Positions 7,682 through 48,258 of a DNA stretch of 64,000 bases are shown one piece after another. Below the pieces are notes generated by a model. The model saw only the letters and a program-made list of their open reading frames with translations. It did not search any database and was not told the origin of the DNA. The translations under genes and the position numbers were made by a program. The first letter of the stretch is position 1, and every line of letters begins with the position of its first letter. Origin of the DNA: a virus (Duplodnaviria; Caudoviricetes); the IMG/VR virus record IMGVR_UViG_3300028533_000217, positions 34,307-98,306 of that record. One strand, written 5' to 3'.

Positions 7682-7693
7682 AACATAATTATA
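7682..7693 (+). promoter_or_regulatory. Late promoter driving the tandem ncRNA
   Basis: AACA taatta TA. Confidence 0.6.
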
Positions 7694-7696
7694 AAT

Positions 7697-7976
7697 ATAC
7701 TGTGAAGTCGATATGAATATGTAAGTCAAAAGCTTACATACAATGGCGCGAAACAAGTGGTGCTGATGTAAACATCAGATGGATGGCAGGTGTGACCTGA
7801 CAGCCATGCGGAATAGGTCATTGTCAAACAGTATTTACACTGTGAAGTTCATATCATATGTAAGTCAAAAGCTTACATACAATGGCGCGAAACAAGTGGT
7901 GCTGATGTAAACATCAGATGGATGGCAGGTGTGACCTGACAGCCATGCGGAATAGGTCATTGTCAAACAGTATTTA
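7697..7976 (+). ncRNA. Tandemly duplicated ~140-nt structured RNA of unknown family
   Basis: Two copies (7699-7837, 7839-7976) with an identical 121-nt core; GC-rich relative to the genome; nested stems; flanked by promoter and terminator. Confidence 0.7.
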
Positions 7977-7991
7977 ATTTACTTTTACATA

Positions 7992-8016
7992 GAGATAACC
8001 TTTAATAGGTTATCTC
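7992..8016 (+). terminator. Terminator-like hairpin after the tandem RNA
   Basis: gagataacct-ttaat-aggttatctc; weak U-tail. Confidence 0.55.
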
Positions 8017-8033
8017 AAATTATTTTAAAAGGA

Positions 8034-8714
8034 GTGATTTATATGTATATAACAATAGAATCTGAAGTTCATAAAGATTGGGGTTATGGATTAGAATTTA
8101 GATATTACGTTGACATGGATAATACATGGTGGTATTGTTATGAAGATATATGTGATTATATAGAATTAAATCAACAAGTTGCTGATAAAATATATAGACA
8201 CAAATTACAAGAAGATGATAAAAGAACCGTATATGACAGAAACCATAACAATAATCGTGGGGAACAAGAAACGATAGTTCTATATTTTATATCTTCCAAT
8301 GCTGTAAGATATATGGTGAAACGTAATAATGAACGTAACAGTAGATTAATAAAGGTTATGAACAATTTGGAATTCGTTAGTGGAGCTCATGAAATATTTA
8401 ACGATAACGAAGAGTTAAAAGAAAGAATAAATGTTTTAGGTAAATCTATAGAAAAATATGATTATGAAGAAATATTCTATCAGGCAAAACAATTAGTTGA
8501 ATCTGAATCGGGTAAAAATATATTAGACAAGATGGGAGTTATAGATAAAGATAAAGAATCTTTAATAGAACAGATAAAACATGAGATATACGATTATGAT
8601 GAAAATATAGAAGAAGTACAATTAACCATGAGAAACCTAAATGAAGAAAAGAAAGTTAAATTTAAAAAATCAGAAACAGAAATTCCTAAGTGGTTAAGTG
8701 AAGTTGTGAAATAA
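8034..8714 (+). CDS. Bro-N-like DNA-binding protein
   Basis: FRYYVD...WWYCYEDICDYIEL...FISSNAVRYMV resembles the Bro-N pattern. Confidence 0.5.
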   Translation: MIYMYITIESEVHKDWGYGLEFRYYVDMDNTWWYCYEDICDYIELNQQVADKIYRHKLQEDDKRTVYDRNHNNNRGEQETIVLYFISSNAVRYMVKRNNERNSRLIKVMNNLEFVSGAHEIFNDNEELKERINVLGKSIEKYDYEEIFYQAKQLVESESGKNILDKMGVIDKDKESLIEQIKHEIYDYDENIEEVQLTMRNLNEEKKVKFKKSETEIPKWLSEVVK

Positions 8715-19241: not shown

Positions 19242-19282
19242 TGTAAAAAGGTTATATTTCAATTATATATTATAATAATGAA
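19242..19282 (+). promoter_or_regulatory. Putative early promoter
   Basis: TGTAAAAAGGTTATATTTCAATTATATATTATAATAATGAA. Confidence 0.75.
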
Positions 19283-43639: not shown

Positions 43640-44407
43640 TTATTCTTCATTATTTAAATCATTTATTATACTATTTTGTAACTCTAAACATATCTCAGAA
43701 GCAAATTCATCTATTATGTCATTATGTGAATATTTTATTTCATTGAATAATTTATATACAAAATTGTTAGCTATTTTAAAATCTCGCACATATTCTTTAA
43801 CTATTTCTCCACAATATTCACCAGGTTCGACTGCTAATTCCATAAAATCTTCTGGGTCTAATTCTAAATCTAATATATGATAAATTATAGATATTATATT
43901 CGATAATACTATAACATCATCTTTATTCTTAGTTAACTTCTTCATATTCGATGTCGTGACATCTTTTCTCTTATATTCGTCTGTAAAAAATCCAGCTAAT
44001 TCTGATTTATTCATTGTAATATAATTTAATAAGAAATTTGTTATATTTTCTTTTAAATTTACAACAAAGAATTCGTAAGCATTCTTTCCAATCATTTCTA
44101 TTTCAAATCCTTGCAGATTATCTCTATCTACTCCTAAACCGAATCTTTCATCTAATTCTATGACTAAAAATGTGTTAAATTCATCTCTCATTTCTTGTAA
44201 CTCATATCTATATTCATCTATATGTCCTATTTCTTCCATCGCTTCATCTAATGTCTCATATACTTGATCACAATGATTAGTTGAAAAAACTAAAGGATCA
44301 TCTATTTGCGATTTAATGTTTTCTTTTATTATGTCAATAGGTAAATCACCTAATATTCTTTCAATATCAAATCCGTTTATAAAATCATCATCTCTTAACA
44401 TTTCCAA
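43640..44407 (-). CDS. Hypothetical acidic protein
   Basis: RBS; late promoter AACA gttatt TA at 44443-44454. Confidence 0.7.
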   Translation of the reverse strand: MEMLRDDDFINGFDIERILGDLPIDIIKENIKSQIDDPLVFSTNHCDQVYETLDEAMEEIGHIDEYRYELQEMRDEFNTFLVIELDERFGLGVDRDNLQGFEIEMIGKNAYEFFVVNLKENITNFLLNYITMNKSELAGFFTDEYKRKDVTTSNMKKLTKNKDDVIVLSNIISIIYHILDLELDPEDFMELAVEPGEYCGEIVKEYVRDFKIANNFVYKLFNEIKYSHNDIIDEFASEICLELQNSIINDLNNEE

Positions 44408-44489
44408 CCTCTCCTTCTTTATTCGTAGTCTTTTATTTATCCTAAATAACTGTTAAGGTTAAAATAAAAAAATATAAGACTGAAGAGTC

Positions 44490-45554
44490 TTATATTTTAT
44501 TTACATCGTTCTCCCAATTTTCATAATACATATTACTGTCAAAATAATTTTGATTAAACATATACCAAATAACATAATCATCTAACTGGTCTTTAAATTT
44601 ATTTATGTTTTTAGGATATTGATAACCAAAATCTATATTTCTTAATTTAATTTTGTTAAATATTTTTCTAGTTTCTTTAGAATCTATTTTATTAGCAAAT
44701 TCTTGAACTGAAATCTCTTTAGAATTAACTTTAATTATATCTTTATCTATATTCTGTAAAACATTACACAGTTCATTTGTTTCTTGCATAACTTGTCTCC
44801 ACATAAATATTTCACCATTATTTATCTTGAATATGATTTTAGAAAATAATTTCATCAAATCTATCACAGCTTCTCTATCCAAATTGCATAAATATAATGA
44901 TTTAGTTTCCAATTCCTGTTTATAATCATTGGCAAAATAATATGTTGCTAACATATCGAATAGAAATCCTGAATATATACAATTATTTTCAGCAATAATA
45001 CCCTCAAGATAACTTATTTGTTGAGCTAAGATTTCACACAGGTATTGGTGCTCGGTTATATTCGTGTATATATATTTATAGAATTCCCTTTGATTATCAT
45101 TCAAATTTAACAAAGATTTAAAACCATATCTTCCTGTATAATGACCTAATCTATTTACAGCAGATTCTATTTTCGTAACTAAAAGACCATAATCATACGT
45201 CCCATTTTTTCTTTTATATTTATATGCTTTAGCTTTTACTTTCATTACTGAATAATTATACGATATTTCATCATATAATCTTTTTGGAAAATCTATATGA
45301 ATATGGTCTGAAACAAACATGTTCTCAGAATGAATATTTATACAAGTTACTCGTATATGTTCACGTAAATTAGATTTGTTGTTTTTATATTCATATAGAC
45401 AAAATAATGTATATTCATACGTCTTCCCATTTTTAACTCTGTCTTTCAGATTTATTCTAACATTGTAATTATTTGTTATGTTGGTTGAATTATCTATGAC
45501 ATTCATATCATTCATAGTTCCATGATTTGTATATATAATATCTCTATTTATCAT
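44490..45554 (-). CDS. Hypothetical protein downstream of the hairpin-repeat RNA
   Basis: 354 aa, RBS aaggag; beta-rich, basic/aromatic N-terminal half (possible OB-like nucleic-acid binder). Confidence 0.7.
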   Translation of the reverse strand: MINRDIIYTNHGTMNDMNVIDNSTNITNNYNVRINLKDRVKNGKTYEYTLFCLYEYKNNKSNLREHIRVTCINIHSENMFVSDHIHIDFPKRLYDEISYNYSVMKVKAKAYKYKRKNGTYDYGLLVTKIESAVNRLGHYTGRYGFKSLLNLNDNQREFYKYIYTNITEHQYLCEILAQQISYLEGIIAENNCIYSGFLFDMLATYYFANDYKQELETKSLYLCNLDREAVIDLMKLFSKIIFKINNGEIFMWRQVMQETNELCNVLQNIDKDIIKVNSKEISVQEFANKIDSKETRKIFNKIKLRNIDFGYQYPKNINKFKDQLDDYVIWYMFNQNYFDSNMYYENWENDVNKI

Positions 45555-45584
45555 TATTTCAACTCCTTTATATAGATTTATTAA

Positions 45585-45616
45585 AAATTAAAAGCATAAC
45601 TCAATGAGTTATGCTT
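45585..45616 (-). terminator. Intrinsic terminator between the repeat array and the ORF
   Basis: aagcataactc-att-gagttatgctt followed by ttaattttt on the minus strand. Confidence 0.7.
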
Positions 45617-45648
45617 AAAAAATATATATAATTTTAGTTAAAATTAAG

Positions 45649-45815
45649 AGGTAGAGTTAGCTACAGAGTCCACCCTCTGCGAGCATACGGTACAGAGTCC
45701 ACCCTCTGCGACCATACATCATTCTACGCCTATTCAGGTAGAGTTAGCTACAGAGTCCACCCTCTGCGAGCATACGGTACAGAGTCCACCCTCTGCGACC
45801 ATACATCATTCTACG
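45649..45815 (-). repeat. Nested tandem repeat / hairpin-array ncRNA
   Basis: Two identical 80-nt units (87-nt period); four copies of tacagagtccaccctctgcga at 45662, 45691, 45749 and 45778. Confidence 0.9.
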
Positions 45816-45842
45816 AGAACTTTTAACTATTATTCATTTGTT

Positions 45843-45883
45843 ATCAATTATATAATATATAATTGAAATATAACCTTTTTACA
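45843..45883 (-). promoter_or_regulatory. Consensus early promoter driving the repeat array
   Basis: TGTAAAAAGGTTATATTTCAATTATATATTATATAATTGAT on the minus strand. Confidence 0.75.
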
Positions 45884-48258
45884 CTACCAATCATTTAAAT
45901 CATCAAATCCATCTAGTATCCAAGGATTTGAATTAGTTTCTCTTTTATCGTAATCATAGTTCAAGTCTTCTCTTTCAATATCTTCTACTCTAGTGGTTGC
46001 ATTTATAGCTTTATCTATTTCTTCCGATTGTCTATTATAATGCATCATTTCTTTTCTATTATTTTGCTCATATGTATTTACAGATTGAGAAGCCATTAAT
46101 TGTGCTTGGAAGAACATCATATCTTCTTCAGATAAGTTATTCATAGCATATTGATAAGCATCCTCTTCTTGTGCTTTATCACCATCAAATCCAGGTTCCT
46201 TCATTCCTTTAACGATTCCCCATCTGTTAAGATTCTTACCATATGTATAAACATATAAAGCTATTAAGTAAGACATAATACTATCGTCATGTTCTCCAGC
46301 AGCAGCTTGAACTTTACCGTTCTTTCTTACTAGTTTTAATATATCATCTATAACATAGTGTGAGGTTAATCTATCTTTAAACTCTTGCACTGTTAAGAAT
46401 AACAAATCTATCATTAATGCTCTTGATTTAACCCCTGTAAATACTCCATAATGTCTCCTTCTTTCAACTTCTCTTTCTATATGTCCTTTATTCATTTTAG
46501 AAGTATTATCTTCAACTAATTCTTTATTCATACTATGATAAATATTTCTATTTAAAACGGTTTCTCTTAAATCTTGTATAACTGAATCTCCCCCATGGTT
46601 CTTTTCTATACAAAGAACACCATTAGGAATATATTTCTTAATTAATTGGTATAAAAATCTTTTTAAATCGGGATAACCCATAATAGGACTTCTAAATTCA
46701 GCATCTATTTGTAAAGTATAAGGATTGACAATAGAAATTGCAGTACTGTCGTTATTAACTCCAGTAGCAACGTCGACACCAACTAAATAAGGTACTTTAG
46801 GATTTAATTCTTTATATACATTTAATTGGTATATATCCATTATATAATGTTCTTCTACTATATTCGGTCTAATTTCTTGTATAGCCATTAAGTCTTCTTC
46901 ACTAAAAGGAGAATCTTTACTACCTCTAATTCTTTGAAGTAATAATTCTCTTCGTATAGCAGTAGGATCACCATTTACTAATGAACATAGTTTTCTAAAC
47001 CAATCTTCTCCCAATCCCAATTGTTTATATGAATATTCTATATATACTATATTATTAGCTGCATTTGCAGATATTATCTCTTTAGCTTTATCAGGACCTA
47101 AATCATAAAAATTTTCACTCCAACGACAAGTTTTATCTAGAATCTTTTGCGCCGCTTGTCCTGCAGGTGAGTCTAAATCACCTGGTGTACTACTAAGTAT
47201 ACGACAGTATGCAGCACCGTTTCGTTCAGCATTAGCTGCGGCTGTTGAATATGCTGGTAATTGTGTTACGAATAGATTCGCTACATCTATCCTTCTATAT
47301 GTCACCATATAGTTCAGACTATATCTTCATTCTTTCGAATGCCTCCCGTTTCCACTCGCTTGAGTGTACTCTACTCCCTTCCATATTCAAAATGTGGTTT
47401 CGATAGTCGTTGAACCTTCCTCTAATTAATTAGAGGCTTGGCTGCTGATTATCTCTTTATAAGAGACGTCCCAGCAATTAGAGAGGTTTTAGTCGAGCCC
47501 AGATTCAAACCCGACGCCATCATAATCTCATCAATATAATTTATAAACTCAGCCTCATCCATGTAAGTAATAGGTAATGTATTACCCCTTCCTAATTTTA
47601 CAGCTGCTTCTTTACTACTAGCTTTAGGTTTAGTTACTATAGTATTTTTAGTTAAAGGATTATAAATTTTTCTTATATTGTCTATTTCATTATCTTTAGT
47701 TCCTAATACTTGGTCAACTACACAATCCTGTCTTAGTTGTAAATAAGAAGGTAATAATTCTCTTTGTGATTTTAATCTCTCTAAGTTTTCAGATGCAAGT
47801 TCTTGTGAAGTTGCAAAAAATGCAAAAGAAGAGTTTGTTGTACCAAATAAATAAGCCCAAGTAAGATTTGCTAATATAGATTGAGTTTTCCCTATCTGTC
47901 TAGGTATTGTTAAATAATGGTCGATATTATTCACAAAACACCACGTTGCTGCTAAATTCGCTCTATTCAATTTATATGGAATACCATTACTATTCCCTTG
48001 GTCAGGTATTCTACAAACTTCTCTTAAATAATACCAAGGGTTTCTTATACATTCAGCCATTATCCTTTGACATAATTCTTCCGACATTACAGTTATTGGT
48101 CCATGAGGATCTATACCTTGTAAACCCCTATCATATAATCTTAAAAAGAACATATTGTTCTTTATACCTAATTTTTTTAAATCGGCAGCGACCTGTAGAA
48201 ATGATATATTAGTCGTTTCCGTATCATAAAAGACATTACTATTTTCATGTATAAACAT
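45884..48258 (-). CDS. terL: Terminase large subunit, intron-split (exons 48258-47509 and 47257-45884, ~707 aa)
   Basis: PRQIGKT Walker A, YMDEAEF Walker B, spliced MASG|PAYSTAA, STPG motif III, nuclease GVDVATG/IEKN/HDD. Confidence 0.92.
47258..47508 (-). mobile_element. Group I intron, no internal ORF (251 nt), apparent terminal A
   Basis: Exon gtcgggT pairs with IGS gctcgac; same core as the other two introns; P10 ttgaat-ctgg pairs with exon ccag..attcaa. Confidence 0.88.

What the first reader, a model, noticed from the sequence alone, without database searches (positions are those of the whole stretch)
44490..45883. Early promoter, hairpin-repeat RNA, terminator, orphan ORF: a type III TA-like RNA-protein module inserted after terL
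Seen: a near-consensus early promoter (45883-45843, minus) reads into a GC-rich array built on a 29-nt register (87 = 3x29). Four hairpins share the same stem and a GGUGGA loop (gcagag-GGUGGA-cucugu) below which sits a bulged C. The basal pairs covary between copies (ggu..acc versus gcu..agc), which indicates selection on structure. A fifth, different hairpin fills the middle slot. An intrinsic terminator (45616-45585) follows, then a 354-aa ORF with no promoter of its own. Established: promoter-repeats-terminator-gene is the layout of type III TA loci (toxIN, cptIN, tenpIN), phages can carry antitoxin-mimic repeats, and multi-GGA-loop RNAs sponge CsrA. Inference: a new RNA-antitoxin/RNP system, or an early multivalent decoy RNA against a host RNA-binding protein. 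Neither the repeat nor the ORF resembles a family I recognise.
Basis: partly seen in the sequence, partly recalled or inferred. Interest (0 to 1): 0.85.

Follow-up and report, generated by a model that had tools for sequence, protein, structure and literature searches.

The report
Jumbo-phage twin-hairpin RNA with partner protein

Summary
On the minus strand, 45879-44466 contains, in order: an AR9-type early promoter, two perfect 80-nt RNA units 87 nt apart (four identical hairpins), an intrinsic terminator, a strong ribosome-binding site and a 354-aa ORF.

Comparative data make it more than a layout resemblance.
- The ORF belongs to a tiny family seen only in metagenomes: 22 cluster representatives among 1.8 billion.
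- Every member with readable upstream DNA has the same RNA in front of it, in at least seven different gene neighbourhoods.
- This phage has a second, 33%-identical copy outside the window.

Each RNA unit is a three-way junction: a closing stem plus two hairpins with identical loops. 15 of 30 pairs show double changes, and there are 24 G.U against 0 A.C mismatches, so selection acts on the RNA of the ORF strand.

The protein has an N-terminal OB fold and an unmatched helical domain. There is no Pfam, PHROG, PADLOC, Rfam or isolated-phage match.

Best reading: a cognate RNA-protein pair working like type III TA or AbiF-RCd22. Toxicity is untested. A CsrA sponge or a DNA-level element is not supported.

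The scan noted the same kind of cassette before in another genome (e1-5657648), and noted this genome's second locus (e1-5768378).

The parts
45845..45879 (-). AR9-type early (virion RNA polymerase) promoter. Extended motif at 45879-45851, core AATTATATATTAT at 45864-45852, predicted +1 G at 45845.
   Evidence: Consensus AAATATATATTAT-N6-G from PMC5312081. Regex match. The extended motif occurs 7 times in the window against 0.35 expected, and is identical at 19246-19274. The same motif lies upstream of the arrays in L004/L010, L012 and L024.
45821..45829 (-). 5' strand of a leader-tail helix (P0, UAGUUAAAA) that would enclose the whole array. Its partner is 45643-45635.
   Evidence: RNAduplex found a contiguous helix of 9-14 bp in the same register in 8 of 10 loci, with different sequences. 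It is also present in the MFE fold. The helices are AT-rich, so support is moderate.
45732..45820 (-). RNA unit 1. Closing stem P1 (GUAGA/UCUAC), junction AAUGAU, P2 hairpin (13 bp, bulged C, loop GGUGGA), P3 hairpin (9 bp, bulged C, same loop), junction UAAC.
   Evidence: Repeat copy 45815-45736. Covariance model R1 scores 92.8 bits. Covariation.
45645..45733 (-). RNA unit 2, identical to unit 1 over 80 nt.
   Evidence: Repeat copy 45728-45649. R1 scores 93.8 bits.
45635..45648 (-). Conserved tail CUUAAUUUUAACUA after the last unit. It includes the 3' strand of P0.
   Evidence: CUUAAUUUUAA-like tails follow the last unit in most loci. Duplex with the leader.
45582..45616 (-). Intrinsic terminator (11-12 bp stem, 3-nt loop, U-tract) between the RNA and the ORF.
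   Evidence: In 12 of 13 related loci a hairpin plus U-tract of different sequence occupies the same place; L008 has none.
45563..45569 (-). Ribosome-binding site AAAGGAG, 8 nt before the ATG. No early or late (AACA-N6-TA) promoter motif lies between the terminator and the ORF.
   Evidence: Read directly.
44490..45554 (-). 354-aa ORF. The N-rich, low-confidence N-terminus is residues 1-25. The OB fold is residues 26-135 (45479-45150). The helical domain of unmatched fold is residues 141-354 (45134-44493). The [SA]-D-H motif (D83 H84) is kept even in the most distant relative.
   Evidence: ORF. Family alignment A1. AF2 model with pLDDT 76.6 and pTM 0.78. OB matches at Z 8.7-6.5. The C-terminal model has no convincing match. 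hhalign to the distant member.
44466..44491 (-). Weak hairpin (AAGAC/GUCUU) plus a U7 tract that ends the cassette.
   Evidence: Read directly. It falls below the scan's G+C threshold.

Best explanation
This is a self-contained, mobile two-gene cassette of AR9/PBS1-like jumbo phages.

Proposed sequence of events:
1. Early in infection the virion RNA polymerase starts at G45845 and makes a ~260-nt RNA.
2. That RNA carries two copies of an ~80-nt three-way-junction 'twin-hairpin' domain.
3. Most transcripts stop at the intrinsic terminator.
4. A minority read through and are translated into a 354-aa protein with an OB fold and a helical domain. The RNA is therefore made in excess over the protein.
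5. The RNA is the protein's cognate ligand. The two hairpins of a unit present identical loops, which probably bind two OB domains or two protein copies. The RNA holds or regulates the protein, as ToxI does for ToxN and RCd22 does for AbiF.

Status of each step:
- Shown: the anatomy, RNA-level selection on the ORF strand, obligatory RNA-protein linkage, mobility, and paralogs with different loops.
- Inferred from AR9: early timing.
- Inferred: binding, RNA excess, and that the protein is harmful when free.
For: 1. Linkage.
- All family members with upstream DNA carry the RNA on the same strand: window, L024, L002/3, L004/5/10, L006/7, L008/9, L011, L012, L017, L018, L021. Truncated arrays sit at the contig ends of L013, L015 and L016.
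- A whole-genome check of G000-G002 pairs each clear protein hit with an RNA hit.
- A relative at hhalign E 2e-9 keeps the 'hairpin array - terminator - ORF' order with an unrelated 42-nt hairpin array.

2. RNA structure.
- 88% of cells are paired.
- 15 of 30 pairs show changes on both sides.
- The covariation score is 0.359, against 0.159 in shuffles (0/500 reached it) and at most 0.104 when partners are slid.
- There are 24 G.U and 0 A.C mismatches.
- Closing stems differ between units of one array, yet each pairs.

3. Loop matching. HP1 loop equals HP2 loop in 14 of 15 units, although 7 different loops occur among loci.

4. Layout and promoter class. These meet the Blower criteria quoted in PMC12283969.

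5. Protein fold. The OB fold is typical of nucleic-acid binders, including the anticodon-loop-binding domains of Asp/Asn-tRNA synthetases.

6. Signs of a selfish or conflict element.
- At least seven insertion contexts.
- Two 33%-identical paralogs with different loops in one genome.
- An orphan RNA without an ORF.
- A member with an in-frame stop.
- No ORF without an RNA.
Against: - No nuclease or toxin fold or motif was found. Pfam, PHROGs, PADLOC and PDB sequence searches were empty or insignificant, and the helical domain is unmatched.
- It differs from classical type III antitoxins. The units are long three-way junctions separated by linkers, some loci have one unit, and L008 has no terminator.
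- The addiction logic of TA systems is not obvious for a lytic jumbo phage.
- The sample is small, about 14 distinct loci, all metagenomic.
Confidence: 0.5

Rival explanations
1. Cis-acting autoregulatory leader. The protein binds the hairpins in its own 5' leader only to set terminator read-through or translation of its own mRNA. Its real job (for example binding host or phage DNA or RNA) lies elsewhere, and the RNA has no action in trans.
For: The RNA, terminator and ORF form one transcription unit, with no promoter before the ORF. RCd22 also acts in cis by premature termination. Single-unit loci exist.
Against: - Units are duplicated to 2-3 perfect copies, which suggests selection for RNA dose.
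- The array does not overlap the terminator stem.
- A promoter- and terminator-framed orphan unit is kept in two phage genomes without any ORF.
- The leader-tail helix suggests a stable, free-standing RNA.
Confidence: 0.2
2. Active ribonucleoprotein or decoy. The RNA, stabilised or loaded by the OB protein, is itself the effector of early host takeover or counter-defence. It would act as a multivalent sponge for a host RNA-binding protein or a mimic of a host RNA. The protein is a chaperone, not a toxin.
For: It has an early promoter. It presents four identical loops per transcript. The orphan RNA persists without a protein. Phages are known to use RNA mimics (pseudo-ToxI, PMC3594212, listed).
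Against: - Loops differ widely between relatives and between paralogs in one genome. That fits private protein partners better than one conserved host target.
- GGA and GGAGG are not conserved, which argues against CsrA or anti-SD targets.
- The tight co-inheritance with a fast-evolving protein also fits private partners better.
Confidence: 0.2
3. DNA-level element. The inverted repeats are binding sites (iterons, an origin or a packaging site) for the adjacent OB-fold protein on double- or single-stranded DNA.
For: OB folds of MCM, PriB, SSB and RPA top the structural list. The array lies next to terL in this window.
Against: - G.U 24 against A.C 0 shows strand-specific RNA pairing.
- The distant closing stems and the leader-tail helix covary.
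- The array is framed by a promoter and a terminator.
- There are two or more copies per genome at unrelated sites, and the array lies next to terL only here.
Confidence: 0.04
4. The conserved AUG...UAA inside each unit encodes a ~21-aa peptide, so the array is a tandem micro-ORF locus.
For: In the window each unit reads ATGATG...TAA in one frame, 21 codons. AUGU and CUAA are invariant.
Against: One-nt indels in each hairpin shift the frame between relatives, so the peptide is not conserved. Substitutions are compensatory, not synonymous. There is no ribosome-binding site, and the AUG abuts the closing stem.
Confidence: 0.01

Closest known systems
Type III toxin-antitoxin systems (ToxIN, CptIN, TenpIN)
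   Same: One promoter, tandem RNA repeats, a Rho-independent terminator and then the protein gene. This layout gives RNA in excess. Repeats within an array are near-identical. The systems are patchy and mobile, and cognate pairs diverge.
   Different: - The protein is 354 aa with an OB fold and a helical domain. It has no sequence match to ToxN, CptN or TenpN.
- The RNA unit is an ~80-nt three-way junction with two hairpins, not a 34-45-nt pseudoknot repeat.
- Units are separated by linkers and can be single.
- The host is a lytic-type jumbo phage and the promoter is a phage early promoter.
- Toxicity and processing are untested.
AbiF-RCd22 of the C. difficile phi027 prophage (bioRxiv 10.1101/2025.04.15.648962)
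   Same: It is phage-borne. A ~100-nt RNA carries two copies of a hairpin motif, followed by a terminator and a co-transcribed protein of ~300 aa. The RNA binds and neutralises the protein and also attenuates its transcription.
   Different: The protein there is Abi_2/HEPN-like and the RNA is the Rfam abiF motif RF03085. Neither matches here. That system uses a host SigA promoter in a prophage.
Pseudo-ToxI of phage PhiTE (antitoxin-mimic RNA; PMC3594212)
   Same: A phage-carried repeat RNA without its toxin. It compares with the orphan unit in G001/G002 (L030).
   Different: PhiTE mimics a host antitoxin. Here the orphan resembles the phage clade's own cassette RNA and has different loops.
CsrB/RsmZ-type multi-GGA sponge RNAs
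   Same: Several hairpins present G-rich loops on one transcript.
   Different: GGA is not conserved across the family, and each RNA is tied to its own phage protein rather than to a host CsrA.

Membership tests
Type III TA locus (operational criteria of Blower et al. 2012, as quoted in PMC12283969) | Protein gene preceded by a Rho-independent terminator and, further upstream, tandem repeats under one promoter | tested here: met
   The same order is seen in 12 of 13 related loci.
Type III TA toxin families (ToxN, CptN, TenpN) | Sequence membership of the protein in a known type III toxin family | tested here: not met
   No Pfam hit at E<=0.1, no PADLOC hit at E<=0.1, no PHROG hit. The PDB profile search gave only insignificant hits.
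Type III TA toxin families (ToxN, CptN, TenpN) | ToxN-like endoribonuclease fold | tested here: inconclusive
   The N-domain matches OB folds. No ToxN-type chain appears among the listed rows, but absence from a list does not exclude the fold.
Type III TA systems | Protein is toxic; RNA neutralises it by direct binding and is cut into units by it | not testable with these tools
Type III antitoxin RNA | Directly abutting short (about 34-45 nt) repeats | tested here: not met
   87-nt period, 80-nt unit plus a 7-nt linker. Single-unit loci are L008 and L012.
AbiF/Abi_2 with abiF-motif RNA | Abi_2 (PF07751) protein and Rfam RF03085 motif | tested here: not met
   No Pfam hit. No Rfam hit at E<=10 in the window region or at E<=0.1 in six related loci.
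OB-fold nucleic-acid-binding domains | Five-stranded closed beta-barrel superposable on known OB domains | tested here: met
   Residues 26-135 match at Z 8.7-6.5 with 80-98 aligned residues to MCM-N, PriB, SSB, RPA, Stn1 and Asn/AspRS anticodon domains. Foldseek probability is up to 1.00 for SSB Rim1. This is fold only; it gives no function.
AR9-type early (virion RNAP) promoters | AAATATATATTAT-N6-G(+1) | tested here: met
   AATTATATATTAT-ATAATT-G at 45864-45845. terL's closest isolates are PBS1/AR9-like Bacillus and Staphylococcus jumbo phages. Early timing itself was not measured.
CsrA/RsmA sponge RNAs | GGA in hairpin loops conserved across the family | tested here: not met
   Loops GGCGGU (L018), GGCAGG (L024) and AUUAUUAA (L030) lack GGA.
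CRISPR array or repeat-mimic RNA | Repeats separated by unique spacers | tested here: not met
   Hairpins abut each other with fixed 4-nt and junction sequences. There are no spacers.

The most novel reading that the evidence does not exclude
This is a previously unknown class of RNA-controlled phage protein. An OB-fold effector is kept in check by a three-way-junction twin-hairpin RNA whose loop sequence acts as a private 'address'. Lytic jumbo phages would use it in several mutually insulated copies for phage-versus-phage or phage-versus-host conflict. In effect it would be a fourth, structurally unrelated type III-like TA/Abi family, the first one native to jumbo phages and driven by a virion-RNAP early promoter.
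Probability: 0.3. Interest if true: 0.85.

Novelty: new variant of a known kind. Interest (0 to 1): 0.72.

Why it matters
Only three families of type III toxin-antitoxin systems are known, plus the recent AbiF-RCd22 case, and all were found in bacteria or prophages. This cassette has the same genetic logic but an unrelated protein (OB fold plus a new helical domain) and an unrelated, well-supported RNA fold. It sits in giant lytic-type phages under their own early promoter.

If the RNA does control the protein, the result would:
- widen the structural range of RNA-antidote systems;
- show that jumbo phages carry their own conflict modules in several insulated copies;
- offer a compact RNA-protein recognition pair (hairpin loop and OB domain) with natural specificity variants.

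Even if the protein is not toxic, the twin-hairpin RNA is a new structured RNA family with a defined protein partner, which makes its function directly testable.

Tried and rejected
- Rfam: nothing relevant at E<=10 for the window region. LPR69 at 22.8 bits is a terminator-type chance hit. Nothing at E<=0.1 in six related loci.
- Protein libraries: Pfam, PHROGs, PADLOC and a PDB sequence profile found no family for the ORF.
- Isolated phages: blastn and tblastn against 50,697 isolated phage genomes found no match to the region or the ORF.
- IMG/VR: the exact hairpin search gave no hit. The protein-pattern scans gave none either. The degenerate two-hairpin pattern found L018 and L021; L019 and L020 are pentapeptide-repeat coding sequence, i.e. 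chance.
- Prokaryote genomes: the pattern scan gave 73 loci, but none is a true match by model R1. The best are 26.5 bits (L084) and 22.7 bits (L053).
- ESM Atlas: searches by features and by shape gave only unnamed clusters, or OB-containing families at TM around 0.3.
- C-terminal domain: folded alone, its best match is DdrC at Z 7.5 and rmsd 5.3, below what is meaningful for helical proteins.
- Readings considered and rejected:
  - Hammerhead or other self-cleaving ribozyme: the core does not fit and there is no Rfam hit.
  - C/D-box-like k-turn: AUGAUGU resembles box C, but the 3' partner is an invariant CUAA, not CUGA.
  - Micro-ORF coding: the frame is not conserved.
  - Downstream 255-aa gene as part of the cassette: its homologs follow the cassette only in the window-type context.
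  - L018 versus L002 as a clean occupied/empty insertion-site comparison: the flanks are rearranged.

Full report
**What is in the window**

Read on the minus strand, the stop codon of the second terL ORF at 45884 is followed directly by the motif AAAAGGTTATATTTCAATTATATATTATA (45879-45851). After that come:
- a 25-nt leader;
- two 100%-identical 80-nt copies 87 nt apart (45815-45736 and 45728-45649);
- a conserved tail, CUUAAUUUUAA;
- an 11-12-bp hairpin with a U-tract (45616-45592);
- the ribosome-binding site AAAGGAG (45569-45563);
- a 354-aa ORF (45554-44490);
- a weak hairpin plus U7 (44491-44466).

The hairpin core GCAGAGGGTGGACTCTGT occurs four times, with 0.01 expected by chance. The 271-nt stretch folds with z = -6.0.

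**Which phage, and what kind of promoter**

- The window is part of a 98-kb IMG/VR contig, about 47% complete, with 27% G+C.
- The closest terL relatives among isolates are Staphylococcus and Bacillus jumbo phages of the PBS1/AR9 type.
- AR9 early genes are transcribed by the virion RNA polymerase from AAATATATATTAT-N6-G(+1) (PMC5312081).
- The window has AATTATATATTAT-ATAATT-G, which places the start at G45845.
- The extended motif recurs 7 times in the window against 0.35 expected.
- It also precedes the arrays in L004/L010, L012 and L024.
- Early timing is inferred from AR9. It was not measured.
- No early or late (AACA-N6-TA) motif lies between the terminator and the ORF. The ORF must therefore be translated from read-through transcripts (read).

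**The ORF family and its linkage to the RNA**

- The ORF has no Pfam, PHROG or PADLOC family.
- It has no match in 50,697 isolated phage genomes.
- It has 17 close relatives among 5.8 billion clustered proteins, all from metagenomes.
- A full profile search gives 22 cluster representatives among 1.8 billion.
- I fetched the DNA for 12 relatives and read the upstream regions. Every one with enough upstream sequence has the same kind of array on the same strand.
- Several contigs break inside the array (L013, L015, L016), as repeats tend to cause.
- A more distant member, 35-43% identical (L018/L021), has the array too.

The gene neighbourhoods differ. The cassette is found:
- after terL (window);
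- after a Cpn60-like gene (L004, L012);
- after a 131-aa gene (L002, L006);
- near a DNA polymerase and before an HD protein (L008);
- after a helicase block (L011);
- after a 119-aa gene (L018);
- divergent from a 110-aa gene (L024).

The cassette therefore moves as a unit.

**The RNA**

I aligned fifteen units from nine loci (A2). Each unit has:
- a closing stem, P1;
- a conserved junction, A-U-G/U-A-U;
- a 13-bp hairpin P2 with a one-base bulge or mismatch;
- an abutting 9-bp hairpin P3 of the same design;
- a junction, UAAN.

Evidence for this fold (earlier version):
- 88% of cells pair.
- 15 of 30 pairs show changes on both sides.
- The covariation score is 0.359, against 0.159 in shuffles (0 of 500 reach it). 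It is at most 0.104 when the 3' partners are slid.

Among non-Watson-Crick cells there are 24 G.U and no A.C. This shows that pairing is selected in the RNA of the ORF strand and argues against a DNA palindrome.

P1 has no conserved sequence and differs between the two units of one array in L011, L018 and L024, yet each unit pairs. This is why I read the window's 'fifth hairpin' as the meeting of two P1 halves.

In 8 of 10 loci a further 9-14-bp leader-tail helix of varying sequence would enclose the whole array. It is AT-rich, so support is moderate.

The two loops of a unit are identical in 14 of 15 units, although seven different loops occur among loci. This is concerted change of the kind expected if both hairpins bind the same surface of one partner.

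A covariance model (R1) finds the RNA only on the sense strand of every cassette. It finds no true match among the candidate loci from 185,579 prokaryote genomes. Rfam 15 has no matching family.

**More copies and decayed copies**

- The window's own genome holds a second cassette outside the window (G000:C1:10507-10683). It has the same promoter motif, two units with loop GGCAGG, a terminator and a 361-aa paralog that is 33% identical.
- Two other phage genomes (G001 of 203 kb, G002 of 228 kb) each have one cassette. Each also has a unit of the same architecture with loops AUUAUUAA, followed by a terminator, a ribosome-binding site and only six codons. That is an orphan RNA.
- G002 also has a very distant family member (hhalign probability 96%, E 2e-9). 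It has one in-frame TAA at codon 69. Upstream of it lies a different array of seven hairpins at 42-nt period, then a terminator.
- Across these three genomes each clear protein hit has an RNA partner. No family member with readable upstream DNA lacks an array, while one RNA lacks its protein.

**The protein**

- AlphaFold2 with the family alignment gives pLDDT 76.6 and pTM 0.78.
- Residues 26-135 form an OB fold. They match at Z 8.7-6.5 to MCM-N, PriB, SSB, RPA, Stn1 and the anticodon-binding domains of Asn/Asp-tRNA synthetases. Foldseek agrees weakly.
- Residues 141-354 are helical. Folded alone, they have no convincing match.
- Invariant residues cluster in the OB domain (C52, R68, C71, H75, D83, H84). 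The [SA]-D-H motif survives in the most distant member.
- I found no recognisable nuclease or toxin fold.

**Mechanism**

- Shown: one transcription unit; an RNA under selection for structure; obligatory co-inheritance with a nucleic-acid-binding-type protein; paralogs with private loops; mobility.
- Inferred: the RNA binds the protein through the loop and bulge of the twin hairpins and the OB domain. The terminator makes the RNA exceed the protein. The RNA restrains or regulates the protein, as in ToxIN and AbiF-RCd22.

The orphan RNA, the stop-interrupted paralog and the absence of RNA-less ORFs fit antidote logic, but the numbers are small.

I give 0.5 to this reading. About 0.8 would apply to the narrower claim that the RNA and protein are a cognate binding pair, and about 0.3-0.35 to the protein being toxic.

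The rivals are:
- a purely cis autoregulatory leader (0.2);
- an active RNP or decoy (0.2);
- a DNA-level site (0.04);
- micro-ORFs (0.01).

The CsrA-sponge idea fails at family level because GGA is not conserved.

**Novelty**

I found no paper describing this RNA or protein. The closest published analogue in design is AbiF-RCd22.

The scan itself has noted the same kind of cassette in another genome (e1-5657648) and the sister locus in this genome (e1-5768378). These are AI notes, not independent evidence. My conclusions rest on the calls cited above.

I class it as a new variant of a known kind: a type III TA-like RNA-protein module with unrelated parts.

Noticed in passing
window 45884-48258 (minus strand): terL is split into an N-terminal ATPase ORF (47449-48258) and a C-terminal nuclease ORF (45884-47308), with a ~140-nt gap between them. 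I did not test that.
   Followed up: no
G000:C1:9421-10683 (outside the window; L024 343-1690, minus strand): A second cassette in the same phage. It has the same early-promoter motif, two units with loop GGCAGG and different closing stems, a terminator, and a 361-aa paralog 33% identical to the window's ORF.
   Followed up: yes
L030 1495-1680 (G001:C1:150552; the same in G002:C1:222265): An orphan RNA unit with the same three-way-junction design but 8-nt loops AUUAUUAA. It has a terminator and a ribosome-binding site, and only a 6-codon ORF remains.
   Followed up: partly
L109 560-2175 (G002:C1:34811-36426): A very distant family member: 348 codons with one in-frame TAA at codon 69. Upstream lie seven hairpins at 42-nt period plus further structured RNA (fold z = -8.9), then a terminator. 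It is either a pseudogene or needs read-through.
   Followed up: partly
window 5264, 10936, 12891, 19246, 25864, 30613 (plus strand): Six further copies of the extended early-promoter motif AAAAGG-N6-TT..A.TATATATTATA. The one at 19246-19274 is identical to the cassette's.
   Followed up: no
window 45805-45740 and 45718-45653 (minus strand): Each unit reads as ATGATG...TAA, 21 codons. AUGU and CUAA are invariant in the family, but the frame is broken by 1-nt indels in relatives. AUGAUGU also resembles a box C motif, without a box D partner.
   Followed up: partly
window 43640-44407 (minus strand): The gene after the cassette (255 aa) has a weak hit to CTD12 of ABC-3C systems (PF20279, E 0.03) and to phrog_24670. 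Homologs follow the cassette only in L013 and L017, so it is not part of the cassette.
   Followed up: partly
window 7682-8714: Earlier notes (e1-5768375, e1-5768386) describe another 'promoter - 2 x ~140-nt RNA - hairpin - ORF (Bro-N paralog)' locus in this window under a late promoter. If real, this phage uses the RNA-then-protein layout with unrelated parts more than once. I did not examine it.
   Followed up: no
L013, L014, L015, L016, L017, L009, L031 (contig ends): Many metagenomic contigs carrying family members end inside or just after the array. The repeats break assemblies, so copy number is likely under-reported. L006 has an N-filled gap inside a 3+-unit array.
   Followed up: no
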